Source: Malacoraja senta (Eukaryota). Taken from it: 64,000 nt of DNA. The notes beneath the pieces are model-generated. The model ran no database searches and had not been told where the DNA came from. It saw nothing but the letters and a program-made list of their open reading frames with translations. The first letter of the stretch is position 1, and each line of letters opens with the position of its first letter. The stretch lies in contig CM075989.1 of assembly GCA_038087875.1 (NCBI GenBank), positions 17,114,001 to 17,178,000 on the forward strand. The letters run 5' to 3'. Of this stretch, positions 831 through 49,977 are shown one piece after another. The position numbers and the translations under genes were made by a program.

Positions 831-1481
831 TTATTTTTGTGCAGTCCAATCTTGCAGCGCTGACATCAGATATGCGCTACCTGCTGCACTGTTGTGAAAC
901 CTTGTGCATAGCCAGGTCACTTCTAGGGGAACATGTAATTCATCATGTACCACCCACACTTAGAGATTCCACTTGTGTCATAGATTTTTACTTTTGATTA
1001 AATTGCCTAGACAGTAAAAAATGACACGCAATTGAATTTTTTGGATATTGTTATTAAGGATTTTGCAGTTCAAGTTAATACAGAAGGACTGTCACAATGA
1101 CTTTGCAGGAGCCATTAGAAAAGATGAATTAGCCAGCGCACCTCTGTGCTCCTGGGATTCTGTAATCTTTGGCTGTTACGCTTCATTACCCACTTTCAAT
1201 GCAAAATCTTAAATACTTTCAGTTACTTGCGGTAAATATTCCTCTCGGCAATTATTTGAAGACAGTGTAGAAAGGTAATGAGGTGGGAGCATTCCCACAT
1301 CATTAGTGGGACCAACCCAAGTTAAATCCATCAACTCTCTGGCTCAACCATCCTCCTGATGCTGTAACTACAAAGCTGCTGCAACGCACATGGAGCGTCT
1401 AACGCTTGACGTGCACTGATACTGTCCTTGTAAACTCGACCTGCAATTAGTCCCATTATGAAAACATGTTCCTAAATCTTA

Positions 1482-1729
1482 AGGGCCTGTCCCACTTGGC
1501 GATTTTTTTCGGCGACTGCCGGCATAATTGACTGACGTATCAGGTCCCCGAAAAATTTGCGGTATGATGCGGCGTGACGCGGCGTGACGACGTATTGACG
1601 CGCGGTGTCTTTTCAAGTGTCGCAACATTTCTTTTGGTCACCGCTGGATTTTGAAATGCTCAAAATCTTTTGGCGACCCTGATATGACGCTGGCAGTCGC
1701 CAAAAAAATCGCCAAGTGGGACAGGCCCT
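1482..1729. mobile_element. PIF/Harbinger-type MITE, long TIRs
   Basis: AGGGCCTGTCCCACTTGGCGATTTTTTT ... AAAAAAATCGCCAAGTGGGACAGGCCCT; TWA flanks (TTA/TAA); CpG-rich interior. Confidence 0.8.
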
Positions 1730-1849
1730 TAAAGACTACCCTCTATCTCCCATCTCAGTTCCTCTTAACATTTTGAAATCTCCAATCTAGTAACTTCTAG
1801 AATTCCTGGCACACAGCCTCAGATTCACGGTTCTATTGATTCCATTTAT

Positions 1850-2160
1850 ACCTTGCGCTGTCTTGGCAAGGCCAGCAGCGTAATCAAGGACGAGTCGCAC
1901 CCTGCCCACTCCCTCTGCTCCTCTCTCCCATCAGGCAAGAGGGATAGAAGTGTGAAAGTGCACACCTCCAGATTCAGGGACAGTTTCTTCCCAGTTGTTA
2001 TCAGGCAACTGAATCATCCTACCACAAACAGAGAGCAGTACTGAACTACTATGTACCTCTGATGTCCCTCGGACTATCCTTGACCGGACTTTGCTGGCTT
2101 TACCTTGCACTATCTATACACTGTAAATGGATTGGTTGTAATCATGTATTGTCTTTCTGC
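1850..2160 (+). mobile_element. Rex1/Babar-type LINE 3' fragment
   Basis: Translates IKDESHPAHSL..LPSGKR.RS...TSRFRDSFFP.VIRQLN, the typical Rex1/Babar C-terminus. Confidence 0.7.
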
Positions 2161-2289
2161 TATGGGCTGTGAGGGACATGATATTATCTCATTATATCCA
2201 GCCCTTGTTCTCCCACCTCCAAGTACAGTAAATCCCTGACATTCCACTATCCAACTGCACCTATTTTTCTACGTTTCTATGTTTCTAAA

Positions 2290-2380
2290 AAGCTGGAGTA
2301 ACTCAGCGGGTCAGACAGCATCTCTGGAGAAAAACTAATAGGTAACGTTTCGGCTCGAGACCCTTCTTCAGACTGAGAGA
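2290..2380 (-). mobile_element. Penelope-derived terminal repeat with minimal hammerhead motif
   Basis: Minus strand AGTCTGAAGAAGGGTCTCGAGCCGAAACGTTACC followed by the CCAGAGATGCT..CTGACCCGCTGAGTTACTCCAGC repeat. Confidence 0.7.
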
Positions 2381-2726
2381 GCATACTGATGTACACCCTG
2401 CCGACAAGAGTACATGCCCTTTACCTCCTCTGACTCTTCCCATTCAGCTGATTTCTGATCCATGGAAAATTTGCTTTCGGTTCCACGAACTCCAATTACG
2501 GTGTCTTCTGTGTAGGAATTTTTCAAATGCCTTTTGCAAATCCCTATAAATAACATTCCTTGACATTAACTGGCCCACTACGTTAGTCACCTTTTCAATA
2601 ATTCAAATGGGTTTTATAGGCTTGATCTGCCCTACATGCTGGATCTTGATGATCTACAGAAAAGTTTCAAGGTGTTCAACCACTTAATGTTCACCAGTAA
2701 TTCCAGGCAAAAATGCATGAGATGTT

Positions 2727-2965
2727 AGACCCAAAATGCTGGAGTAATTCAGCGGGTCAGGCAGCATCTCTGGAAAAAAGGAATAGGCAGGGGAAGAGAA
2801 GTGTTGGAGATGGTCCAAGTGAATTTGAGAACAAGGTGGAAATTTATAGTGAAGTTAATGAAGTCCATGAGTTCTGCATGGGTGCAGGAGGTAGCCCCGA
2901 TGCGGTCGTCAATGTAGCAGAGATAGAGTTTGTGGATAGGGCCAGTATACGCCTGGAACACTGCA
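2727..2965 (-). mobile_element. Penelope-like element fragment (RT core fused to terminal repeat)
   Basis: ORF 2749-2982(-) contains LYLCYIDDRIG...FINFTINFH..LKFTWTISNTSLP, a PLE-type YIDD RT segment. It is joined directly to the same terminal repeat that carries the hammerhead motif elsewhere. Confidence 0.75.
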
Positions 2966-3654
2966 TCAGTGCACTGACTCAAAATTGAAGATTCCTCACT
3001 TTATTGATGGTGAGTTTTCTGGGCTCCTGCAATGCAGCAGTGGACAGCTAGGGGTCACCAGTGGCATATTTCTGTCGAGAGAGCCTTCAAGGGTCCTGAG
3101 GCAAAGTTTCTGGCTGAGAATGACCCTGACCTTGACTGAGAGGGTACAACATGCACTTGGTCGAACTTGCCAGATGTTACAGGAGTCAGAGGTTTACCAG
3201 ATGTTACAACTTGCCAGAGGTTTCAGACATACGGTGAGTGGACTGACACAGACAGGGATCACAATCCCAGAGGGCAATTTACCAATTAACCAATTAACCT
3301 ACAAACCTGCAGCTCGTCTTTGGGATGTGAGAGGAAACCAGACCTCAGAGGAAACCCGCATGGTCACAGGGAGAACGTGCAAACTCCATATAGGCAGCAC
3401 TCGAGGTCAGGATTGAACCAGGGTGCTGTGTGGCAGCAGCTCTATCAACAGCGCCACTGTGTCACAGTCATAAACTCAAAAAAAAATTAAGGATCTATCA
3501 AACTTTATTTCCCTTCCACAAATGCATGTTGACGCTGTGCAATCCTAATATTATTTTCCAAATACCCTGTTACCACTTACTTAATAATAGATTTCATCAT
3601 GTTCCTTATTACTGAAGGGAACGTTTTAAAAATTTCCCTCTTAAACAGTGGGAT

Positions 3655-5129: not shown

Positions 5130-5304
5130 GGAACTGCTGGTGCTGGTTTACACAAAAATGACATGAAGTGCTGGAGTAACTCTGCAGGTCAGGCAGCATC
5201 TCTGGAGAACATGGATAGGTGACGTCTCCTTCAGACTGAAGAAGGGTTCCAACCCAAAACATCACCTATCCATATTCTCCAGAGATACTGCCTGACCCGC
5301 TGAG
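5130..5304. mobile_element. Penelope-derived fold-back repeat
   Basis: Inverted arms GGTCAGGCAGCATCTCTGGAGAACATGGATAGGTGA / TCACCTATCCATATTCTCCAGAGATACTGCCTGACC around a degenerate CTGAAGAAGGG..CCCAAAAC core. Confidence 0.7.
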
Positions 5305-5718
5305 GTACGATATTGGCTTCCTTTATGAGACAGAGCCTCTTATGGATTCTGTCGATGGGGAGATCAATAGCTGTGATGGATCACAGTAGTTCATTATCAG
5401 CAGGTGACTGATAGTTGCAGTAACCATGAGTCTCATTGCTTCCAGAATGTGCTGCTTAGTCTACCTTTCTCTTTCTCTCTGTCGTTGCAAATGTTTTCCT
5501 TTCAAGCCTGCAAATATCTGCTTCCACAACTCGTGTGGTTACTGGGTTTCAACTATCTGTGCCCTAGCAGAGTCCGATATATAATTGGCTATGTGCGATT
5601 TCAGGAGAAATAGTGTCATATAGTATGGAACCCTGTAAAAATAAAGCACTCCTGCCCAACTTGCCCACACCAAACAACATGCCCCAAATACACTAGTCCC
5701 ACCTGCCTGCACTTGACT

Positions 5719-5905
5719 TCAACATTGAGCTGCAGTAGCACTAAACCTCCACAGTTGGCAGCATTTAACGGTGCCACCTGGCCTGGGGAGGCATGGCTAT
5801 TAGCGGTCTGCAGACGTGGTAAAGACATTGGTTTCGCTTTGTGGGCTTATGAGCCTGTAAGCTACTCGTGGAGGAGGCCGCGTAGAGGCTGTCTTTGTCT
5901 CCTCC
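5719..5905 (-). mobile_element. Unclassified 187-bp non-autonomous retroelement with 13-bp TSD
   Basis: CCTGCACTTGACT duplicated exactly at 5706-5718 and 5906-5918; insert unrelated to the host CR1. Confidence 0.8.
5821..5905 (-). ncRNA. Predicted HDV-like self-cleaving ribozyme
   Basis: P1 GGAGGAG/CUCCUCC, P2 AAAGACA/UGUCUUU, P3 GCC/GGC, L3 UCUACGC, P4 GCUUA/UAAGC, and a GCGAA junction with the candidate catalytic C at 5836; G1 is the first base of the insertion. Confidence 0.75.
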
Positions 5906-6774
5906 CCTGCACTTGACTCATATCCTTCTAAACCTTTCCGATCCATATACTGTCCAAATATTTTTTTAAATATATTGAAAGTACTTTAACTATCTCCTCT
6001 GGCAGAACATTCCATATACCCACCACCCTCTATATGAAAAGGTTGCTCCTCAGGTTCCTATTAAAACTTTCCCCACTTACCTTAAACCTGTGGTTCTTGA
6101 TTCCCTTACTCTGGGTAAAAGATTTTGTGCATTTTATCCATTCCCCTCATAATCGTATGTACCTCTATAAGATCACCCTGCACTCCAGGGAATGAAGTCC
6201 TAGCCTGCCCAACCTCTCCCTACAGCTCAGGCCCCCGAGTGCTGGCAACATCCTCGTAAATCTTCTCTGCACCCTTTCCAGCTTGTCAACATCTTGCCGA
6301 TAACAGGGTGACAAGAACTGAACACAATACTCCAAAGGTGGCCTCACCAGGAACTGAACTCGATGAACATCTCTACCAGAAAATCAGAGGCATTGTCTTC
6401 CCTTTCTTGTTTGGACAGAGCGTACTTGGAATGTGGATGTACCAGTCAGTTCTGTAGCCAATAGACATGTTGGCTTCTGACTGCTGCACCTGAACTCCCA
6501 ATGCGCTTTGCTGGAACACCATATTTTGAATGGCGAGTATTTATCTACAACATTTATTATGATTTCCATTAAACAAATAATGGCCAGCGCTTACACAGGA
6601 TGCGTGATTCTCACATTACTGCAAACAGCTGCGTTCACTCCAGATTGCACACAGCACTAGTCAACACCATCTGTTGTATCTCTACATTTCAAAAGTTGAG
6701 ACCATTCTCCAGAAGTTCCGATTTTATTAGGCATTCAAATTGCAGAATAAGGGATTTCTGCCGTTGCTGCAGAG

Positions 6775-36167: not shown

Positions 36168-37608
36168 ATAATAATAATAATAACTTTATTTATAGAGAAC
36201 TTTAAAAACAACCACAGTTGCAACAAAGTGCGGTACATGACTAATCATGGGCAAGAAATTATTATATAACAATAAAAACATTAAACGAAAGAGTAAAAAC
36301 AATAAAATAAAAAACATTAAAAGCACTAAGAACAGGAGCAAAGTCTCAAGCAGTGACAAAAGCCAAGGAATATAAATGTGTTTTAATACTGGTTTTGAAG
36401 ATGGACAGTGAGGGGGCCTGTCTGATGTGTAACGGCAGGGTGTTCCAGAGTGCCGGAGCAGCAACAGAGAAGGCTCTATCCCCTCTGAGCTTCCGCTTAG
36501 ACCTCGGTACCTCCAGGAGCAGCTGATCAGCTGACCTGAGGCACCGGGCAGGAGCGTATGGGTGGAGCAGTTCAGAGAGGTAAGGTGGGGCGAGCCCATT
36601 TAGAGATTTAAAAACAAATAAAAGAATTTTAAAATGAACTTGAAAGTGCACCGGGAGCCAGTGGAGGGAGGCCAGAATTGTCGTTATGTGCTCCCTCTTT
36701 CGAGTTCCAGTTAAAAGGCGAGCAGCAGCATTCTGAACCAACTGGAGACGAGCCAGTGAAGATCGTGCAACTCCAAAAGAGAGTGCGTTGCAGTAATCCA
36801 GCCTAGATGTAATAAAGGCATGGATTACTGTTTCAAAATGCTGCCGCTCGAGAATGGGCTTCACCTTTGCCAGCTTCCTTAGGTGAAAGAAGCTGGACTT
36901 AACCACCGCGCCTATTTGATGATCTAATTTAAAATCACTGTCCATCCTAAAACCTAGGTTCAAAACTGTTGGCTTCACGTACCGTGCCAGTGGACCCAAG
37001 TCAACAAGGGGAGGTTCACGGCAGCCATTGGGGCCAAGCAATATCACCTCTGTCTTCTTTTCATTAAATCCTAGAAAGTTTAGGGCCATCCAGGACTTAA
37101 TGTCCTCAAGACATGACAGAAGTGATTTGACAGAAAAGGCGTCTTCCTTCCTCAGCGGTATATATAGTTGGCTATCATCAGCATAACAGTGAAAGGAGAT
37201 GCCATGCTTCCTAAGAATGGAACCCAGAGGAAGTAAGTATAGTGAGAAAAGCAGGGGCCCTAAAATTGAGCCCTGTGGAACCCCATATGACAGAGGAGCG
37301 GAGGAGGATTCAAAGCCAGCAAGGCTTACACATATGGTTCTGTCTGCCAGATAGGACCTGAACCATCCCAGGGCACTGCCACAGATGCCCACTAGGTGCT
37401 GTAACCGAGATATTAAGATACCATGGTCCACCGTATCAAAGGCGGCAGATAGGTCCAGCAAGACAAGAACCACATAATTACCAGAGTCATTTGCCAGGAG
37501 GATGTCATTAAAAACCCTTAGCAATGCTGACTCTGTGCTATGCATAGCTTTAAACCCAGACTGGAAAACCTCCCGAATATTATGCTCGTCCAAGAAGAGT
37601 TTTAGCTG
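36168..37608 (-). mobile_element. L2-clade LINE, 5'-truncated, young
   Basis: Open RT frame; 3' stem-loop GCACTTT..CAACTGTGGTTG..AAAGTTC, AATAAA, (TTA)n tail; (ATCATA)3 on both flanks (36150-36167, 37609-37626). Confidence 0.9.
36346..37593 (-). CDS. L2-clade reverse transcriptase, C-terminal 415 aa (5'-truncated, no native start)
   Basis: FQSGF..HSTESAL, LLDLSAAFDTVDH, GVPQGSILGPLLF, YADDSQLY, SRLDYCN, LHWLPV motifs; no stops or frameshifts. Confidence 0.9.
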   Translation of the reverse strand: MDEHNIREVFQSGFKAMHSTESALLRVFNDILLANDSGNYVVLVLLDLSAAFDTVDHGILISRLQHLVGICGSALGWFRSYLADRTICVSLAGFESSSAPLSYGVPQGSILGPLLFSLYLLPLGSILRKHGISFHCYADDSQLYIPLRKEDAFSVKSLLSCLEDIKSWMALNFLGFNEKKTEVILLGPNGCREPPLVDLGPLARYVKPTVLNLGFRMDSDFKLDHQIGAVVKSSFFHLRKLAKVKPILERQHFETVIHAFITSRLDYCNALSFGVARSSLARLQLVQNAAARLLTGTRKREHITTILASLHWLPVHFQVHFKILLFVFKSLNGLAPPYLSELLHPYAPARCLRSADQLLLEVPRSKRKLRGDRAFSVAAPALWNTLPLHIRQAPSLSIFKTSIKTHLYSLAFVTA

Positions 37609-38140
37609 ATCATAATCATAATCATATTTTATTAGCTAAGTATGTTTTGCAATATACGAGGAATTTCATTTGCCATACAGTCATACCAATAAAAAGCAAC
37701 AAAACACACAAAATACATTTTAACATAAACATCCACCACAGTGGCCTCCACATTCCTCACTGTGATGGAAGGGGAAAAAAAGTTCAATCTCTCCCTTCTT
37801 TGTCCTCCTGCGGTCGGGGGCCACTAACCGTCCGTTGACGGGATGATCTTACTCCCTTAGCCTGGGCGATCAAGCTCCTGCATCGGGTGGGGGGGGTCTC
37901 AGCTCCCCCGCGCCGGGCGATCTACCCCGGGTTGGGGCTAGTCGAACATCGTGCGGCTTTTGGAGCTTCCCGACGACGGTCTCAACCCGAGACTGCGAGC
38001 TTCTTGATGTTAAAGTCCGCAGGCAAGGAATCGGCTCCGATGGTAAGTCTACGCCCCGCCGTGGGGCTCAAAGTCAGTCCCGAGCAAGGCCTCCAGCTCC
38101 ACAATGTTAGACCGCAGTGCGACCGGAGATATGATACGAA
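37609..38140 (-). mobile_element. Unclassified GC/CpG-rich SINE-like element with (TATGAT)n tail
   Basis: Minus strand ends GAAATTCCTCGTAT..TTAGCTAATAAAA(TATGAT)n, resembling the Rex-type tails in this window; GC-rich non-coding body. Confidence 0.5.
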
Positions 38141-40675: not shown

Positions 40676-40986
40676 CTGACTGCAGCCTTCATGATTTAAA
40701 TATCTCTCTCAAATTTCCTCACAGCTTCTACTATTCCTGTAGGGAAAACTGCAGCTTCTCCATTCTACCCAAATAAGTCCCTGAAATCATTTTTGTAAAT
40801 CTCTCTTGCACTCTCGGCAAAGCCTCTCCAAAAGGGTGGTGCCCACCACTGGCTCAACTGGTGTTTCATAAATTAGCTTCATAATGACGTCCTTACCATT
40901 GTACACACAGCTTCTTCTATTAGGCCCACTCACCTGTCTGCCTATTTTGTTCACCTCCTCAATATGTCCTGATACTTTCAACAAAG

Positions 40987-41419
40987 TTGGTTTATACTCT
41001 CTAGAATTTAGGAGATTGAGAGGGGATCTTATAGAAACTTACAAAATTCTTAAGGGGTTGGACAGGCTAGATGCAGGAAGATTGCTCCCGATGTTGGGGA
41101 AGTCCAGGACAAGGGGTCACAGCTTAAGGATAAGGGGGAAATCCTTTAAAACCGAGATGAGAAGAACTTTTTTCACACAGAGAGTGGTGAATCTCTGGAA
41201 CTCTCTGCCACAGAGGGTAGTCAAGGCCAGTTCATTGGCTATATTTAAGAGGGAGTTAGATGTGGCCCTTGTGGCTAAAGGGATCAGAGGGTATGGAGAG
41301 AAGGCAGGTACGGGATACTGAGTTGCATGATCAGCCATGATCATATTGAATGGCGGTGCAGGCTCGAAGTGCCAAATGGCCTACTCCTGCACCTAATTTC
41401 TATGTTTCTATGTTTCTAT
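40987..41419 (+). mobile_element. Young CR1 3' fragment nested in an old minus-strand CR1 (about 40700-41640)
   Basis: GLYSLEFRRLRGDLIETYKI..RTRGHS..FFTQRVVNLWNSLP open to the stop; (TTTCTATG)n tail. Confidence 0.9.
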
Positions 41420-41639
41420 ACCCCAGATCCCTCTGTTCTAATAAACTTTACAATTATCTCTACTGTTTACATTGCCTCTACTTATTCTTCCTCCCGAAAT
41501 GCAATACTTTGCATTTTTCAGTATTCATTTTTTCTCACGTTCCACTAACTTGTCCACATCTCTTTGGTCTACTACGATCCTCTTTGCAGTTCACTATTTC
41601 TCCTGACGTTATGCCATCTGTAAGTTTACAGCAGTGAAA

Positions 41640-41940
41640 GGCTCAACCCATGCATTGGATCCTTGACTTCCTCATCGGCAAACCTCAATCAGTTTCAATG
41701 GGCAGCATCACTCTCTCCTTGATGACCAGGGTCACCTCAAGGCTGTGGACCAGTCCCCTGCTCTACTCCCTCTGTACCTGGACAGTGTAGCCAGATACAG
41801 CCCCAACGCCATCTTTAAATTCACCACCTTTGTTGGATGAATAACCAGCAACGATCAGTCCAAGTACTTGGGGGAAAATTGTATATTTATTGTGTTAACG
41901 TGACTATAAAGCTACAGCAAGTAAGATTTCCATTGTGCAG
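41640..41940 (+). mobile_element. Degraded Rex1/Babar-type RT fragment
   Basis: TGGATCCTTGACTTCCTC (WILDFL), CCTCAAGGCTGT (PQGC), CCCCTGCTCTACTCCCT (PLLYS). Confidence 0.55.
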
Positions 41941-42080
41941 GAGAGAACTGCAGATGCTGGTTTAAATCGAAGATAGACACAAATGCTGAAGTACTATAAC
42001 TCAGCAGGACTGGCAGCATCTCTGGAGAGACCATTCTTTTTCACGATTTTCATTGTTCTTTTCCTGGTGCCCGTGCGAAT

Positions 42081-42127
42081 TACATAGATACATAGGTACA
42101 TAGAAAATAGGTGCAGGAGTAGGCCAA
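42081..42127 (-). mobile_element. Young CR1 3' tail abutting the gap
   Basis: Reverse complement of TGGCCTACTCCTGCACCTATTTTCTATGTA.CTATGTATCTATGT at 43684-43728. Confidence 0.8.
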
Positions 42128-42130
42128 ATT

Positions 42131-42330
42131 NNNNNNNNNNNNNNNNNNNNNNNNNNNNNNNNNNNNNNNNNNNNNNNNNNNNNNNNNNNNNNNNNNNNNN
42201 NNNNNNNNNNNNNNNNNNNNNNNNNNNNNNNNNNNNNNNNNNNNNNNNNNNNNNNNNNNNNNNNNNNNNNNNNNNNNNNNNNNNNNNNNNNNNNNNNNNN
42301 NNNNNNNNNNNNNNNNNNNNNNNNNNNNNN
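42131..42330. other. Assembly gap (200 N)
   Basis: Run of N. Confidence 1.
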
Positions 42331-42979
42331 CATTCCCTCATCGACCCTTTCTGTTTCTTCATCAAAACTCTGCACCAAATTACAGCAGTTGAACAGGATT
42401 TTTCATGCTCGTTTTTTAGAATCAATCCACACTTGTCCAAGTGACTTATAGGCCTGCCCCTGATTATTGTTTCTCCTCACCTATCTTCACCTTCGGAACG
42501 CAGCTCCACAAGTGAGGTCATTAATCCCCGATACCAAATCCGATGCAACAATTGATTTCCATCTCCATTGACCTCTAGTCTTGCTCCATGTCAGCAGTAA
42601 AGTATGGACCCTTCATACTGAAGCTGCCACATCTACTAGCAATATATCTCAATGTAACTGGCAGCCATCAAATAAACACCTCATGTTCAGCTGTAATTCT
42701 CCACCATTACCCATGGTAGCAGGCAAAGCTTGATTCTGCACATCACATTTTATTGCTTTTACAATAACCGATGGTCACTTTTCCAAGATTTATAATTAAA
42801 TATCCCAATAACATTCTTTATGGTATTTGCTTGCTCTGAGGTTTAATTAAATCCAAGTTTATAATGGATCTAAACTTAATTCTGATTATTGGAAACTGTT
42901 CTATTTAACTTGGTGTGAATGTGCTAACAAAGTGGTTTGGAAGAAAGTAGTCTGGGCCACTGGCAACTGAGAAGCCCTT

Positions 42980-43074
42980 CTCACCACTGTGTCACATCCC
43001 TGTGCACTTATCACCACTGTGATACACTATTCATACACCATCCTTGCACGCTGCCGACCCATGTTATACTCCCC
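42980..43074. repeat. Degenerate minisatellite, left segment (continues 43729-43886 and 50155-50430)
   Basis: Recurrent CACACTGCTCACCACYGTGTYACACTCCCCATTCCC-like units. Confidence 0.65.
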
Positions 43075-43728
43075 GTATGTTGGCCTTCATAGCAAGAGGA
43101 TTTGAGTATAGGAGCAGGGAGGTTCTACTGCAGTTGTACAGGGTCTTGGTGAGACCACACCTGGAGTATTGCGTACAGTTTTGGTCTCCAAATCTGAGGA
43201 AGGACATTATAGCCATAGAGGGAGTGCAGAGAAGGTTCACCAGACTGATTCCTGGGATGTCAGGACTTTCATATGAAGAAAGACTGGATAGACTTGGCTT
43301 ATACTCGCTAGAATTTAGGAGATTGAGAGGGGATCTTATAGAAACGTACAAAATTCTTATGGGGTTGGACAGGCTAGATGCAGGAAGATTGTTCCCGATG
43401 TTGGGGAAGTCCAGGACAAGGGGTCACAGCTTAAGGATAAGGGGGAAATCCTTTAAGACCGAGATGAGGAAAACCTTTTTCACACAGAGAGTGGTGAATC
43501 TCTGGAACTCTCTGCCACAGAGGGTAGTTGAGGCCAGTTCATTGGCTATATTTAAGAGGGAGTTAGATGTGGCCCTTGTGGCTAAAGGGATCAGGGGGTA
43601 TGGAGAGAAGGCAGGTACGGGATACTGAGTTGGATGATCAGCCATGATCATATTGAATGGCGGTGCAGGCTCGAAGGGCCGAATGGCCTACTCCTGCACC
43701 TATTTTCTATGTATCTATGTATCTATGT
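43075..43728 (+). mobile_element. Young CR1 LINE, 5'-truncated, open C-terminal frame
   Basis: MLAFIARGFEYRSREVLLQLYRVLVRPHLEYCVQFWSP...GTGY*; (ATCTATGT)n tail; near-identical to 40987-41419. Confidence 0.92.
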
Positions 43729-44309: not shown

Positions 44310-47300
44310 CTATGTTTGTAATAATTCTATAAATGCAGACCACGTCAGGTGGAAGTGATCTGGTTTACCTGCTAGGAGGAGTCTTATCTCTTCAAGGTGT
44401 AATGTTTCAAACATATTTGAAATCCACATATTTATAGTTGGTATTGGAGCCTTCTTCCAAAATTTTAGAATTAGCTTTTTTCCAGTTATTAACCCATAGT
44501 CCATTAATTTCTTTTGAAACACATTTAGTTCTGGATCATCTTCCGTTATTCCGAAGATAATCCATTCTGCTTTGGGTATCAGTCTTGTTTTAAATAACTT
44601 TGTAAAGATTTCAAAAATTTCATTCCAAAATTTTTGAATTTTTGTACAGAAGACAAATGAGTGCGCTATAGTTGCTTCTTGGGATTGACATTTATCACAA
44701 ATAGATGATACGTTTGGGAAAATTTTATGAATTTTAGTTTTCGAATAATATAATCTATGTAAAATTTTAAATTGTATTAAAGTGTGTCTTACATTAATCG
44801 AGCATTTATGCACTTTTAATAAGTATTCATTCCAACTTTCCTTTGAAATTTTAATAGCTAACTCTTGTTCCCAGTCTCTTCTGATACCCTCCGTAGATGG
44901 TATTTGTGCATTTAAGATAATATTATACAAATATGATATTAAGTTTGCTGATTCCGCTTTTATCTGCATTGCCTCGTCCAGTACATCTGCTGGGTTATTA
45001 TAATGATCTTTTGTATATTTTTTCAAATAGTCGCATATTTGAAAGTATTTAAAATATTGATTATTTCCGAGTTTATATTTTATTTGTAATTGTTGAAATG
45101 AAAGTAATTTTCCAGTTTCATACAAGTCACCAAGCGTTTTAATTCCTAGTCTATCCCATTGTGTATAAGCATTATCTATAATAGAAGGACTAAACAAAGG
45201 GTTATTGACTATAGGTAATAAAAGTGATAAGTTTCTTAATTTTAAATTTTGTTTTATTTGTTTCCAAATACGGATTGTACTATGAATAATTGGGTTCTTA
45301 TTATAGTTTATGTTATTCAATTTCATTGGAGAGAGGAGGATCGCTCCAATGTTTCTAGAGGAGCAATCCTCTTTCTCCATTACAATCCAGTCTACTTGCT
45401 GGGCGGAGTTATCCATCAGTTGAATCATGTTTTTAATATTTACTGACCAATAATAATACATAAAATTAGGTAGTGCTAGACCCCCCAATACTTTAGGTTT
45501 ATTCAGATGGGTTTTTTGTATTCTATGTGATTTATAGTCCCATATAAAATTAGTGATATCTGAGTCGAGTTTTTTAAAAAACTTCTTAGGTAAGTATATA
45601 GGAATTGATTGAAATAGGTATAAAATTTGTGGTAAAAAGATCATTTTTATTGCGTTTATTCGGCCTATTAAAGACATCGGGAGCGTTTTCCAGAATTTAA
45701 TTAATGTATTCAGTTTATTAAGTAGGGGGTCAAAATTTGCCCTGAACATACCTTGATATGTTCTGGTAATTTCGATTCCCAAATATTAAAATTTTTCTGT
45801 AGCTATTTTAAAAGGGAATTTTAAAAGATGTGTTGAATCTTTCGGTTTTATTGACATAATTTCACTTTTATTCCAATTTATTCTATATCCAGAAAAAGAT
45901 CCGAAGTCTTCAATTAAATTTAATATATTTGGTATAGTGATTTGAGGTTTTGTAATATACAATAATATATCATCCGCGTATAAAGATATTTTATTATATG
46001 AGTCTTTAGTATTATATCCATGAATATCAGGGTGTATTCTAATTTTTTCTGCTAGCGGTTCAATAATGAGAGCAAACAGCTGTGGTGATAATGAGCATCC
46101 TTGTCTATTTCCCCTTGATAGTTGAAATTTCGAGGATAATATGTTATTAGTAAGTATTCTAGCTGTAGGTTTGTTATATAGTAACTTAATCCATAAAATA
46201 AAATTCTCTCCCAGTTGAAATTTTTGTAATACTTTATCCATATAATTCCATTCTACTTGATCAAATGCTTTTTCAGCATCCAGCGAAATAATTGATAATT
46301 CTTGATCTTCAGATTTGTGTGAGTGCATTATGTTGAGTAGACGTCTCATATTATTAGAAGAGTATCTCTTAGGGATAAACCCTGTCTGATCTGGGTTTAT
46401 TAATTTACTAATGTATTTACTTAATCTTCTGGCTAATGTTTTCGCTAATATTTTTTGATCTGTGTTTAACAATGCTATAGCTCTATATGAGCCAGGTTCT
46501 TCTAAATCCTTATTTTTCTTAGGTATTAATGTAATCGTTGATTCCGCTAATGTATCAGGTAGTATTCGTTTTTTAAAAGCGTATTGGTACATTTTTTGTA
46601 ATCTTGGTATTATTTTATCATAAAAGCTTTTATAAAATTCATTAGTAAATCCATCAGGGCCTGGTGTTTTTCCATTTTTTAGTGAGTTTATTGTATCTTC
46701 TAATTCCTTAATTGAGATTTGTGCACCCAGTTCCTCTTGTTCCTTCAGCTCTAACTTTGGAAGATTACAGGTATCCAAGAACTTTGTGATATTATTGGAA
46801 TCAATTATCGTTTTAGATGTATACAAATTCTCGTAAAATTGCGCAAATCTTTTATTAATATCCTTCGGTGTTGTTAATAATTCCCCTTTATCTGATTTGA
46901 TCTTTGGTATAGTATGTTCCTTTTCTCGTTTTTTTAGCTGGCGAGCCAAAAGTTTATGCGGTTTATCCCCAAATTCAAAGTGCTCTTGTTTTGTAATTTG
47001 AAAAAGTCTTATAAGTTTGGCAGATAATAATTTATTTAATTTAAATTTTAAAATTATTATTTTATTATGTTTATCTATTGATGGATCTTTAGCATTATCT
47101 ATATCCATTTGTCTAATAAGTTCTTCTAACTGTCTTTGTTCATTCTTATTCTTTTTATTTTGAAAAGCTTGATATGAAATTATAATACCCCTAATGTATG
47201 CTTTAAAAGATTCCCAAAGTAAAGTAGGCGATATATCTGAAGTATCATTTGTTTGAAAAAAGACCTCCATTTGTTCTTTTAAATATATACTCGCTTGTGG

Positions 47301-48097
47301 ATCTTTTAAAATTTGAGAGTTAAATCTCCAGAATGAATTATTCTTAGACAATCCTTCCAGTTTTAAAAAGAAAGTTAGTGGAGAATGGTCTGAAATTGAA
47401 TTTGTATGGTATATTGCATTAGATGTTTGGGGGATTAATTTTGTATCCAGCAGAAAGTAGTCTATACGTGAGTATGTCTTATGTACCATTGAGTAAAACG
47501 AATATTCCCTGCCAGTTGGATTCACAATTCTCCAAACATCTGCTATATTAGTGTTATTTATGTAGGTATTGAGGAGTTCCCCAGTTTTCGATTTCATATT
47601 CCCTCTCTGTTTTTGACTTGATTTATCTAAGTACGGATCTAAAACACAGTTAAAGTCTCCGCCTATTATAACATTTTGATAGTTTGACTCTGCAATTATA
47701 TTGAAGATTTTATTGAAAAAGTGGGGGTTATCAAAGTTAGGGGCATATATATTTACCAAAGTAAGTGGAGTGTCATGGATTTCTCCATTAACTATTAGGT
47801 ATCTCCTATATCTGTTATAATATTCTTTGCTTTAAATGGTATACCTTTTCTTATGATAATTGACGTGCCTCTAGATTTTGAAGTGAATGAAGAGTGGTAT
47901 GTTTGACCTATCCATTTCGCCCTCAGCCTAACTTGGTCCTGAGGTTTTAGGTGTGTTTCTTGTAGGAAGGTAATGTCAGAATTATACATTTTTAGCTGAG
48001 CTAATATCTTACCCCTTTTGATAGGTTCGTTAATACCTCTTATATTCCAACTACAAAATGAGATTCCTCCTAGGTTCTTTTGTGTGGTGTCATGCAT
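44310..48097 (-). pseudogene. L1 ORF2 (APE endonuclease, reverse transcriptase, CCHC knuckle), disrupted
   Basis: SWNIRG, FLQETH, NIYAPN, GGDFN, SRIDYF, SDH, PGPDG, SLDAEKAFD, QGCSLSP, YADD, CDKC-x8-HSFVFC. Frameshift near 47805 and in-frame TAA at 45786-45788 within F[K]YLG. Confidence 0.95.
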
Positions 48098-48906
48098 TTT
48101 GAATAATTATAGTACCTTTGAATCTTGTGGTGCGTCCATGTCCCAGGTCTTTAGGTATTGGGGGAGTTTTTGAATTATTAACTTTTGCTGGTATGTCCAT
48201 ATTACTCTTATCACTAAACACAAAACACAAACAAGTGATTTTATGTGATAAAAAAAACCCTAAAAAAGTGAGGCTACAGTGTCTGATATAATCGGCACTG
48301 TAGCGAGTGACCCACCTGTAGGTGGGAAAAAACCTTGTTTTGACTTCCATTGCGTTGTTACTCAACTAGCTCCGCTCTCTTAGTTAATCATAACATATTA
48401 AAATATTAAAACGAGGCCTCACATTCAGATATATAATACAATTTTACCCTGATATTTCCTTATAACATATATATATATCAGAGTTTAATTATTAAACCAA
48501 TATTTTTGATTTCAATAAGAATCAACTGTTGGTTGAAGGGGTTAACGAGACGTGCTCCTGGACATAAGCCAGGAGCTCGTTTCTCATCCCCTCCTCCCGC
48601 TTATAGACAAGGTTACAATTTATTAAAAATTCATATTAGTATGTTAGTTCATTATTTTTTTGTTTTTTTTGTTAGTATTCTAATCTAACCTGCATAACTT
48701 TTAAAGTTGTTAATAGGATAAGTTCTTACAATTGGTTATAACATTTTAATCAATAAGCAATTATTTTCTGATTCATATTCCAGCTGTAAAGTTGTTTACA
48801 CGTTTTGAACAGAAAATGTCCTTGCTTCAACATTCCGGAGATAACAATGTAACTATCCCCAGACAAAACATAGCTGAGAATTATTCGGATCTGCCAAAGC
48901 TCCCTT

Positions 48907-49977
48907 TTATTTCTGTTTTTCAACAATCGTTTGGGCATATTTGAATGCGTCTTCAGGCTTAACAAATGACTTTTCAAGACCATTAAAGGAAATACGCATT
49001 TTCGCGGGATAAAAAAACCCAAATCTGACCCCTTCTCTCCCTCTTAAAAGATCTTTAACCTTATCAAATTTGTTTCTTTTTTGCACAATTTCATGTGGGT
49101 AGTCCCTGAATATCTTAATAGTATCCTTGTCCAGCCGCAATTGTACACCATATTTGATTTTACTCATAACATATTCCAGTTCTGCAGTATCTCGAAATTT
49201 CACTATAATATGTCGTGGATAAGCTTTTCCCGCATCAGATCTTTTTCCAAATCTTGGGACACGATGAGCCACTTCGATTTTCGGTTCCTTGGAAAGATTC
49301 AACAGTTGTTTCAACAAGCCCATGGCAAATTCACGTACCTGTTCCCCTTCTGCCCCCTCTGAAACACCAAGAATTCTCAAATTCTGGCGTCTAGAGCGAG
49401 CTTCCAGGTCCAGGCATTTGACTGAGACTTTCTCTAATTGAGTCCCCATTTGTAGTGATGCTTGTTCGTTTTCTCGCCTCATTTGCTCATGTTCTTGCCT
49501 CAATTTCGCCATGTCTTCAACCAGTCGAGCCGTATTTTTCTCCAATTCCGTAATTGTGTGTATACTTGCAGCTACTGTTTCAAGTACAGCCGTGAACTTA
49601 TCCGTAGTAATTACATCCATCTTATCCATTTTCTCTGATAGTCCATCTTTCACCTCATCAATTCGTTTATTCATAATGTCCAGTAAATCCGTCATATTCT
49701 TCTGGTTACCAGCATTTAAATCCTTCATCATCTTCTCCATTCCTTCCATCATTTTTGCCGAATTTTCCTTCATTTCCTTCTTATCTTCCACCCTATTATC
49801 CGAGATCTCATCTTTCAAATTTTTCATTGATTTCTTCAAGTCATCAAAGTCTTTCTTAGATCTTGTATCCATTTCTGCAGCCACTTCAGAGACTTCAGAG
49901 GTAACTTCTGCTTCAAAATTTTTCGACAGCTTATTCACAGCTCTCTGAGGGCTCACAGCTGGACTCAATTTACTCAT
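48907..49977 (-). CDS. L1 ORF1p (coiled coil, RRM, CTD), 356 aa, intact
   Basis: Heptad-rich N-terminal half; LEARSRRQNLRILG, IEVAHRV, PRHIIVKF, IKIFRDY, YPAKMRI motifs. Confidence 0.92.
   Translation of the reverse strand: MSKLSPAVSPQRAVNKLSKNFEAEVTSEVSEVAAEMDTRSKKDFDDLKKSMKNLKDEISDNRVEDKKEMKENSAKMMEGMEKMMKDLNAGNQKNMTDLLDIMNKRIDEVKDGLSEKMDKMDVITTDKFTAVLETVAASIHTITELEKNTARLVEDMAKLRQEHEQMRRENEQASLQMGTQLEKVSVKCLDLEARSRRQNLRILGVSEGAEGEQVREFAMGLLKQLLNLSKEPKIEVAHRVPRFGKRSDAGKAYPRHIIVKFRDTAELEYVMSKIKYGVQLRLDKDTIKIFRDYPHEIVQKRNKFDKVKDLLRGREGVRFGFFYPAKMRISFNGLEKSFVKPEDAFKYAQTIVEKQK

What the first reader, a model, noticed from the sequence alone, without database searches (positions are those of the whole stretch)
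5706..5918. 187-bp mobile element that begins precisely with an HDV-like ribozyme fold
Seen: an exact 13-bp duplication CCTGCACTTGACT brackets an insert in a CR1 remnant. On the minus strand from its first base (5905) it reads GGAGGAG-AC-AAAGACA-GCC-UCUACGC-GGC-CUCCUCC-ACGA-GUAGCUUA-CAGGCUCA-UAAGCCCAC-AAA-GCGAA-ACCAA-UGUCUUU. This gives a perfect 7-bp P1, 7-bp P2 and 3-bp P3, a 7-nt L3, a P4 hairpin and the GCGAA junction in the nested double-pseudoknot order of HDV/CPEB3 ribozymes. Established: HDV-like ribozymes cut 5' of G1 and define the 5' ends of R2, some RTE and ingi/L1Tc-type retrotransposons. Inference: this is a ribozyme-headed non-autonomous retroelement (about 85 nt ribozyme plus about 100 nt tail, no tRNA head, no poly-A) that cuts itself out of read-through transcripts. 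Atypical points: P1.1 is at most one U-A pair and J4/2 has about 5 extra nt.
Basis: partly seen in the sequence, partly recalled or inferred. Interest (0 to 1): 0.85.

Follow-up and report, generated by a model that had tools for sequence, protein, structure and literature searches.

The report
Ribozyme head of a Vingi LINE
This 187-base insert is not a small jumping element of its own but the front end of a 3.2-kb jumping gene, inserted backwards, whose RNA begins with the fold of a self-cutting enzyme; related jumping genes in the same genome begin with a near match to the mammalian CPEB3 ribozyme.

Summary
The 13-bp duplication and the HDV-like fold starting at 5905 are real. No bipartite copy was found among 42 independent 5'-containing copies. 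Of these, 32 are short or inverted, and 25 of those end at nt 189 or 221-242, whatever length of 3' end they carry: twin priming aimed at the ribozyme end. The window copy is the limit case with no 3' part. The fold recurs, with compensatory changes, at 5' ends of distant families; these point to C75 (window 5831), not 5836, as catalytic. Cleavage is untested, and two copies with U75 still start at G1. Further families here start with ribozymes scoring up to 64 bits on Rfam's mammalian CPEB3 model, suggesting CPEB3's ribozyme is a stranded Vingi-type 5' end. Ribozyme-headed LINEs are known (Ingi, R2, RTE; this scan also noted fungal ones on other DNA); I found no paper on Vingi ribozymes, but key papers were unreadable.

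The parts
5706..5718 (.). Target-site duplication, copy at the internal-priming junction; its last two bases (5717-5718) also match element nt 188-189 (2-nt microhomology)
5719..5905 (-). nt 1-187 of a 3.16-kb Vingi-type LINE (94-96% identical to other copies), inserted without any 3' part
5821..5905 (-). HDV-like ribozyme fold: P1 5899-5905/5870-5876, P2 5890-5896/5821-5827, P3 5887-5889/5877-5879, L3 5880-5886; predicted cut 5' of G1 (5906/5905)
   Evidence: activity not tested
5869..5884 (-). Single-pair P1.1: U22 (5884) with A37 (5869); C-G at the same place in 6 of 7 other ribozymes, C-U in 1
5833..5866 (-). P4 region: stem nt 44-47/67-70 with inner hairpin, flanked by AGUA (nt 40-43) and GAA (nt 71-73), which look like a bulged-G (loop E) motif (motif name recalled)
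   Evidence: inference
5828..5831 (-). J4/2 C75-C76-A77-A78; C75 (5831) is the likely general acid; C stands 4 nt before P2 in 7 of 8 ribozymes compared
   Evidence: HDV J4/2 consensus from passages of PMC6326823
5719..5828 (-). Start of the single ORF; its AUG (5828-5826) overlaps A78 and the P2 3' strand and is in frame with the APE N-terminal QLNVEG motif
5906..5918 (.). Target-site duplication, copy at the G1 junction
5646..6400 (-). Older multi-copy host repeat (CR1-like by recall) interrupted by the insert
   Evidence: Pfam no hit

Best explanation
The insert is the 5' module of an autonomous Vingi-type non-LTR retrotransposon. Shown: the parent is 3.16 kb with one APE+RT ORF, a GAA tail and 11-12-bp TSDs, and its first 85 nt have the pairing pattern of an HDV-like ribozyme beginning at nt 1. 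Inferred: the ribozyme cuts the element's RNA free of upstream host transcript just before G1, leaving an uncapped 5' end, and the ORF's AUG sits inside the ribozyme. Shown: most short copies that keep the ribozyme are inversions in which nt 1-9 to X lie back to front beside a 3' piece of any length, with X at 189 or 221-242. Inferred: the protein holds the folded 5' module near the second DNA nick, so that nick primes a second reverse transcription just downstream of the module and runs to the RNA's 5' end. In the window copy that internal priming (2-nt microhomology at nt 188-189) was completed while nothing from the 3' tail was retained; it is a dead-end product, not a family.
For: Copies continue into an APE ORF; Pfam APE + RVT_1, no RNase H; full-length copies with TSDs. 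Of 42 independent 5'-containing copies: 9 full-length (3 interrupted), 1 unresolved long, 29 inversions, 1 with only the GAA tail inverted, 2 5'-only with TSD. X = 189 in 4 and 221-242 in 21 of the 32 short or inverted copies; X is next to the 3' breakpoint in only 2 of 29 inversions; 3' breakpoints range from 1147 to 3072. In 68 consecutive 3'-end matches, 4 of 7 inversions have X in 221-241 (about 1e-5 if uniform, after correction for window choice). 21 of 42 copies start at nt 1; 7 of 9 full-length copies do; the 2 of 21 with a G before G1 are explained by the TSD, so no cap-derived G is seen. The fold sits 190-256 nt before the APE motif in 12 of 25 metagenome loci with an N-terminal match and in 14 of 20 loci of two further families of this genome. 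Among 8 ribozymes, changes on both sides in 15 P1, 24 P2 and 4 P3 cells; P1.1, which the descriptor did not require, covaries. In the family, G1 pairs with U36 or C36 (20 of 43 C).
Against: No cleavage data and no usable RNA reads. C75 is changed in 4 of 41 parsed copies versus 1 for C70; three C75>U copies share subfamily variants and two of them start at nt 1, which suggests a G1 start without cleavage, or that C75 is not the catalytic base. Pair counts for P1-P3 are partly built in by the descriptor. nt 183-190 is predicted paired (accessibility 0.014), unlike 221-242 (top 4% of windows), so accessibility does not explain the 189 hot spot. The 5'-containing sample was selected for nt 10-30 and partly by best score. 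Protein tethering of the 5' module is inference only.
Confidence: 0.75

Rival explanations
1. Same parent LINE and ribozyme, but the window copy arose by ordinary first-strand TPRT primed internally at nt 189 (or on a 3'-shortened RNA), with no twin priming.
For: nt 186-189 read GAAG like the tail, and the junction looks like a normal tail junction; the other TSD end could not pair with a GAA tail. A second 5'-only copy with TSD exists (L189).
Against: Three inversions end at exactly nt 189 and there is a graded series down to an 87-nt and a tail-only 3' part, which makes the 5'-only copies the end of one series.
Confidence: 0.3
2. The 5' end is set by an internal promoter that starts at G1; the fold is a protein-binding, stabilising or translation element and need not cut (or does both, as Pr77/L1TcRz).
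For: U75 copies that start at nt 1; L1Tc's first 77 nt are both promoter and ribozyme (passages of PMC3383444); AUG inside the fold in four families.
Against: Catalytic-core positions (G1, L3 U..CG, P1.1, C-N-R-A) are kept across families about 44-65% identical in protein; no cap-derived G in 21 copies starting at nt 1.
Confidence: 0.2
3. A separate 187-bp ribozyme-headed non-autonomous element.
For: Clean 13-bp TSD; four copies end at nt 189; such elements exist for this clade (passages of PMC5786205) and in this genome as another family.
Against: Only 1 of 42 copies has this structure; the other three nt-189 copies carry different inverted 3' pieces; no 3' recognition sequence or GAA tail.
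Confidence: 0.04
4. The fold is a chance match.
For: Rfam hit for this copy is below gathering.
Against: 0 of 900 shuffles; unique in the window; same position and covariation in distant families.
Confidence: 0.02

Closest known systems
L1Tc/ingi Pr77 HDV-like ribozyme (L1TcRz) of trypanosomes
   Same: HDV-like fold at nt 1 of a dispersed APE-type LINE of the Ingi group; predicted cut 5' of +1; 11-12-bp TSD (passages of PMC3383444).
   Different: Animal genome; 3.16 kb, no RNase H domain; GAA tail; AUG inside P2; ribozyme untested.
Vingi clade LINEs (Vingi-1_EE, Vingi-1_Acar, Vingi-2_Gav)
   Same: Compact single ORF of about 1000 aa, APE + RT, no RNase H (passages of PMC13708176 and PMC3708506; Pfam).
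   Different: [quoted passage not shown] Known derivatives are forward bipartite deletions; here short copies are inversions. No named Vingi protein was available for a tree.
L1 5' inversion by twin priming
   Same: TSD-flanked inverted 5' part plus forward 3' part, with short microhomology at the internal priming site (passages of PMC2912911; junctions).
   Different: Priming site is clustered at nt 189 and 221-242, up to 2.9 kb from the first-strand breakpoint, and the inverted piece reaches the RNA 5' end. That L1's two breakpoints usually lie side by side is recalled, not read here.
Mammalian CPEB3 ribozyme (Rfam RF00622)
   Same: Same fold. Other LINE families of this genome with the same anatomy start with sequences scoring 43-64 bits (gathering 35).
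   Different: The window's own family is not listed among the RF00622 matches and lies on another branch; the link is at clade level.
R2 5' HDV-like ribozyme
   Same: Releases the element RNA from a co-transcript; 5' module proposed to bind the element's protein and aid translation (passages of PMC6765202).
   Different: R2 is site-specific with a restriction-like endonuclease; this element is dispersed with an APE endonuclease.

Membership tests
HDV-like ribozyme | P1 7 bp starting with G1 paired to Y; P2; P3 3 bp; nested order | tested here: met
   (G1-C36 here, G1-U36 in the family majority)
HDV-like ribozyme | L3 with U at first place and C-G near the end | tested here: met
   consensus from passages of PMC6326823
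HDV-like ribozyme | P1.1 pseudoknot | tested here: met
   one pair only, U-A here and C-G in 6 of 7 others; HDV itself has two pairs
HDV-like ribozyme | Catalytic C in J4/2 (C-R-R-A in HDV) directly before P2 | tested here: inconclusive
   C-C-A-A at nt 75-78; C at -4 in 7 of 8; but C75 changed in 4 of 41 copies and GCGAA at nt 69-73 is an alternative
HDV-like ribozyme | Mg2+-dependent self-cleavage 5' of G1 | not testable with these tools
   needs an in vitro assay
Vingi clade LINE | Single ORF of about 1000 aa with APE and RT | tested here: met
   (own copies are broken; 34 of 34 aligned relatives have all three Pfam families)
Vingi clade LINE | No RNase H domain | tested here: met
   no RNase H family; ORF ends shortly after a C-terminal Cys/His motif
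Vingi clade LINE | RT phylogeny with named Vingi elements, sister to Ingi | not testable with these tools
   no named Vingi or Ingi protein was returned; tree has no named reference or outgroup
Bipartite non-autonomous LINE / SINE | 5' part joined in forward orientation to the LINE's 3' end and tail | tested here: not met
   window copy has no 3' part; 0 of 42 and 0 of 60 copies bipartite
Bipartite non-autonomous LINE / SINE | Many copies with the same two boundaries and own TSDs | tested here: not met
   1 of 42
Twin-primed inversion | Inverted 5' part plus forward 3' part within one TSD | tested here: inconclusive
   met by sister copies (29 inversions, many with TSD); the window copy lacks the 3' part

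The most novel reading that the evidence does not exclude
An HDV-like ribozyme is the ancestral 5' end of Vingi-type LINEs across animals; the folded 5' module is gripped by the element's protein and steers second-strand priming to a fixed place behind it; and the mammalian CPEB3 ribozyme is the stranded, later conserved 5' end of one such LINE lineage or of its short derivative. Basis: LINE families in this genome start at G1 with sequences scoring up to 64.2 bits on RF00622 (39 matches over gathering; 0 of 14 control genomes), and the Repbase Vingi-2_Gav 5' end printed in the supplement of PMC5786205 matches the Rfam consensus printed at 46 of 48 positions outside P4 (counted by eye).
Probability: 0.55. 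Interest if true: 0.87.

Novelty: new variant of a known kind. Interest (0 to 1): 0.68.

Why it matters
Vingi elements are being developed as RNA-only gene-insertion tools, with native 5' UTRs kept on driver and donor RNAs (passages of PMC13708176). If that UTR is a self-cleaving ribozyme that holds the start codon and attracts second-strand priming, it predicts cap loss on templates and a specific class of inverted by-products that can be looked for. It extends ribozyme-defined 5' ends to a clade not on the published list I could read. The side result gives a concrete, testable origin for the CPEB3 ribozyme, whose source is not given in the passages I read.

Tried and rejected
187-bp SINE family: rejected. 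Pairing of the 3' UTR with the ribozyme (the P2 5' heptamer recurs before the tail): rejected as probably coincidental, because the CPEB3-like family has the same 3' motif but another P2. MAFFT alignment of 10 ribozymes misaligned P1 in two rows, so pairs were counted from structure-anchored parses instead. Expression: no RNA holder listed; the one raw RNA run laid gave 4 reads, all in the flank; no evidence either way. PDB search gave only R2, L1 and group II RTs. First 3'-end pattern was mis-specified and found nothing. A tblastn test for inversions in two other families and in metagenome loci printed none, but those loci were short or selected on the ORF; inversions were then seen in the CPEB3-like families. 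Ruminski 2011, Kojima 2011 and Webb 2009 were not held, so a prior report of a Vingi ribozyme under the name Ingi cannot be excluded; patents, Repbase and Dfam could not be searched. Paper searches without a Vingi-ribozyme or CPEB3-Vingi link: (0 papers); these cover open-access text only. L120 and L135 gave AT-rich spurious parses and L081 a mis-parse; they were not counted as ribozymes.

Full report
Observation. The window holds an exact 13-bp direct repeat (5706-5718, 5906-5918) around 187 bp. The flanks belong to an older multi-copy repeat; five other copies of it carry the 13-bp unit once at this point, so this is a target-site duplication. I call the host CR1-like from recall of its translated motif; Pfam found nothing in three frames. 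My descriptor hits the whole window, both strands, only at 5905, and 0 of 900 shuffles of comparable regions. Rfam's match for this copy is weak (RF02682, 21.6 bits, E 0.29).

What the insert is. The own-genome search gave 208 candidates, 40 scored, 94-96% identical apart from the window copy. The copies do not stop at nt 187: most run on into an APE endonuclease frame. Full-length copies are about 3.16 kb, with one ORF (broken in every copy translated), a 3' UTR of about 20 nt, a GAA tail and 11-12-bp TSDs. Pfam finds APE and RVT_1 and no RNase H in them and in 34 of 34 aligned relatives. This is the anatomy given for Vingi in passages of PMC13708176 and PMC3708506. No named Vingi protein was available, so clade membership by phylogeny is untested. 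Exact patterns count 112 5' ends and 822 3' ends, 0 in the reversed controls; many 5' matches on small contigs appear to be duplicates of one event.

How it got here. I classified 46 loci that hold the 5' end and dropped 4 duplicates (L180, L213-215), leaving 42: 9 full-length (3 interrupted), 1 unresolved long copy, 29 inversions, 1 with only the GAA tail inverted, and 2 5'-only copies with a TSD (this one and L189). None is a forward 5'+3' bipartite element. In the inversions, nt 1-9 to X lie back to front beside a 3' piece that begins anywhere from nt 1147 to 3072. X is 189 in 4 and 221-242 in 21 of the 32 short or inverted copies; the other 7 are 98, 168, 261, 403, 988, 1146 and 1441, and only two inversions have X beside the 3' breakpoint. 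Because that sample was chosen for the 5' end, I also took the first 68 consecutive exact 3'-end matches on C1 (60 new, 8 already held; two of the new ones are one duplicated event): 58 plain 5' truncations, 3 full-length, 7 inversions, of which 4 have X at 221-241; uniform priming would give this about once in 100,000. Where a TSD was found, X junctions show 1-5 nt of microhomology (read by eye), 2 nt in the window copy. This fits twin priming as described for L1 (passages of PMC2912911), with the difference that the second primer lands just behind the folded 5' module. nt 221-242 is among the 4% most accessible windows of the RNA, but nt 183-190 is predicted paired, so accessibility alone does not explain it; that the protein holds the 5' module near the second nick is my inference. 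The window copy ends at the nt-189 hot spot and closes a series running from long 3' parts through 87 nt and tail-only to none. Single internal priming on the first strand cannot be excluded for it.

The ribozyme. 21 of 42 copies start at nt 1, as do 7 of 9 full-length copies (2 start at nt 2), with unrelated upstream sequence; the two with a G before G1 are explained by their TSDs, so no cap-derived G is seen. Starts beyond nt 9 were excluded by how the sample was drawn. The same fold lies 190-256 nt before the APE motif in 12 of 25 metagenome loci with an N-terminal match (3 too short, 7 without parse, 3 spurious or mis-parsed) and in 14 of 20 loci from further families of this genome. Across 8 ribozymes, P1 positions 2-7, P2 and P3 are fully paired, P1 position 1 in 5 of 8, with changes on both sides in 15, 24 and 4 cells; this is partly built in by the descriptor. 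Not built in: P1.1 is U-A here, C-G in 6 and C-U in 1; and a C stands 4 nt before P2 in 7 of 8. HDV's J4/2 consensus is from passages of PMC6326823. Against this: C75 is changed in 4 of 41 parsed copies versus 1 for C70; three C75>U copies share subfamily variants and two start at nt 1; L069 keeps both candidate motifs. An internal promoter, as in L1Tc (passages of PMC3383444), may therefore set or share in setting the 5' end. Cleavage is untested, and the sequencing runs gave nothing on expression.

The CPEB3 link. The supplement of PMC5786205 prints nt 2-74 of Repbase Vingi-2_Gav. By eye it parses as an HDV-like fold and matches the Rfam consensus of the mammalian CPEB3 ribozyme printed at 46 of 48 positions outside P4. 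I tested this on own data: RF00622 has 39 matches over its gathering score in this genome, best 64.2 bits, and none in 14 control genomes. Seven of the top 10 start at or next to G1 with unrelated flanks and run into an APE ORF; five fetched in full are 3.14 kb with APE, RT, no RNase H and a GAA tail, and 3 of 5 showed 11-12-bp TSDs. Older families score 43-51 bits and some share CPEB3's P4 sequence; several are again short 5' modules beside inverted ORF pieces. The 3.14-kb family is 33-35% identical to the window family's relatives and is a long branch; the window's own ribozyme is not among the RF00622 matches. So the link concerns the clade. Convergence is the rival, but identity extends to helix sequences that vary freely among the other families.

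Prior knowledge. HDV-like ribozymes at LINE 5' ends are established for R2, L1Tc, RTE and Baggins (passages of PMC6765202 and PMC8256844). [quoted passage not shown] The 2026 review mentions ribozymes only for R2 in the passages shown. Passages of PMC4035085, PMC5753468, PMC10919898 and PMC3277949 add no link. Ten searches found no Vingi ribozyme or CPEB3-Vingi statement (listings only, apart from the papers named). Ruminski 2011, Kojima 2011 and Webb 2009 were not held; from recall, some animal elements first named Ingi were later filed as Vingi, so the ribozyme may already be on record under the older name. Earlier scan notes describe analogous fungal LINE ribozymes on other DNA and nothing for this sequence or genome.

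Verdict. Observation confirmed; interpretation partly supported. The insert is a 5' fragment of a ribozyme-headed Vingi-type LINE, produced by priming at a hot spot behind the 5' module. New variant of a known kind; interest 0.68, carried by the priming pattern and the CPEB3 lead more than by this copy.

Noticed in passing
L297-L311, L312, L318 (e.g. G000:C1:217550485, G000:C21:8958189): A 3.14-kb autonomous LINE family (APE+RT, no RNase H, GAA tail, 11-12-bp TSD) whose first 73 nt score up to 64 bits on Rfam's mammalian CPEB3 ribozyme model, with compensatory changes in P1.
   Followed up: partly
L313, L315, L316, L317, L319, L326, L301, L305, L314: Older families with CPEB3-like 5' ends (43-60 bits), some sharing CPEB3's P4 sequence; L301, L313, L317, L319 and L326 have inverted ORF pieces directly upstream, the same 5'-module inversion.
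   Followed up: partly
L320-L325 (e.g. G000:C20:3600463-3600525, G000:C13:8596080): A true short element of about 136-180 bp: minimal HDV-like head almost without P4, C-C-A-A before P2, short GAA-type tail, 11-12-bp TSD in 5 of 6 copies; 50 exact pattern matches. Copies start one base inside the expected 7-bp P1.
   Followed up: partly
Supplement of PMC5786205: Repbase Vingi-2_Gav nt 2-74 and the body of alligator SINE2-1_AMi look like the CPEB3 ribozyme (46 of 48 positions outside P4 against the Rfam consensus, by eye).
   Followed up: partly
L171, L176, L283, L285, L288, L291, L296 and L277, L282, L293, L295: Two more Vingi-like families in this genome, about 50% identical in protein, each with its own 5' HDV-like ribozyme; one is amplified in many small contigs.
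   Followed up: partly
L034:4760-5000 laid with run X5 (another organism): Summed contig depth is roughly 10-100 times higher over element nt 1-240 than beyond, dropping near nt 216-242; may mean a high-copy 5'-module derivative in that organism. The tool warns this depth is no copy number.
   Followed up: no
L312:1386-1515; L186, L197, L171 at the G1 junction: Short tandem re-copies of the element's first 10-30 nt at the 5' junction (five extra units in L312), suggesting repeated template jumps at the RNA 5' end.
   Followed up: no
L022-L027, L212-L215 and many small contigs: One inversion event (X 226, 3' breakpoint 2799) appears to have been multiplied many times with its flanks inside a larger repeated segment.
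   Followed up: no
window 5180-5304: Long inverted-repeat element that matches microRNA models below gathering; probably a MITE-like repeat.
   Followed up: no
window 44310-49977 (-), 36346-37635 (-), 40872-43628 (+): A two-ORF L1/Tx1-like element with long open frames, an L2-like RT frame and CR1-like pieces (labels from recall of motifs).
   Followed up: no
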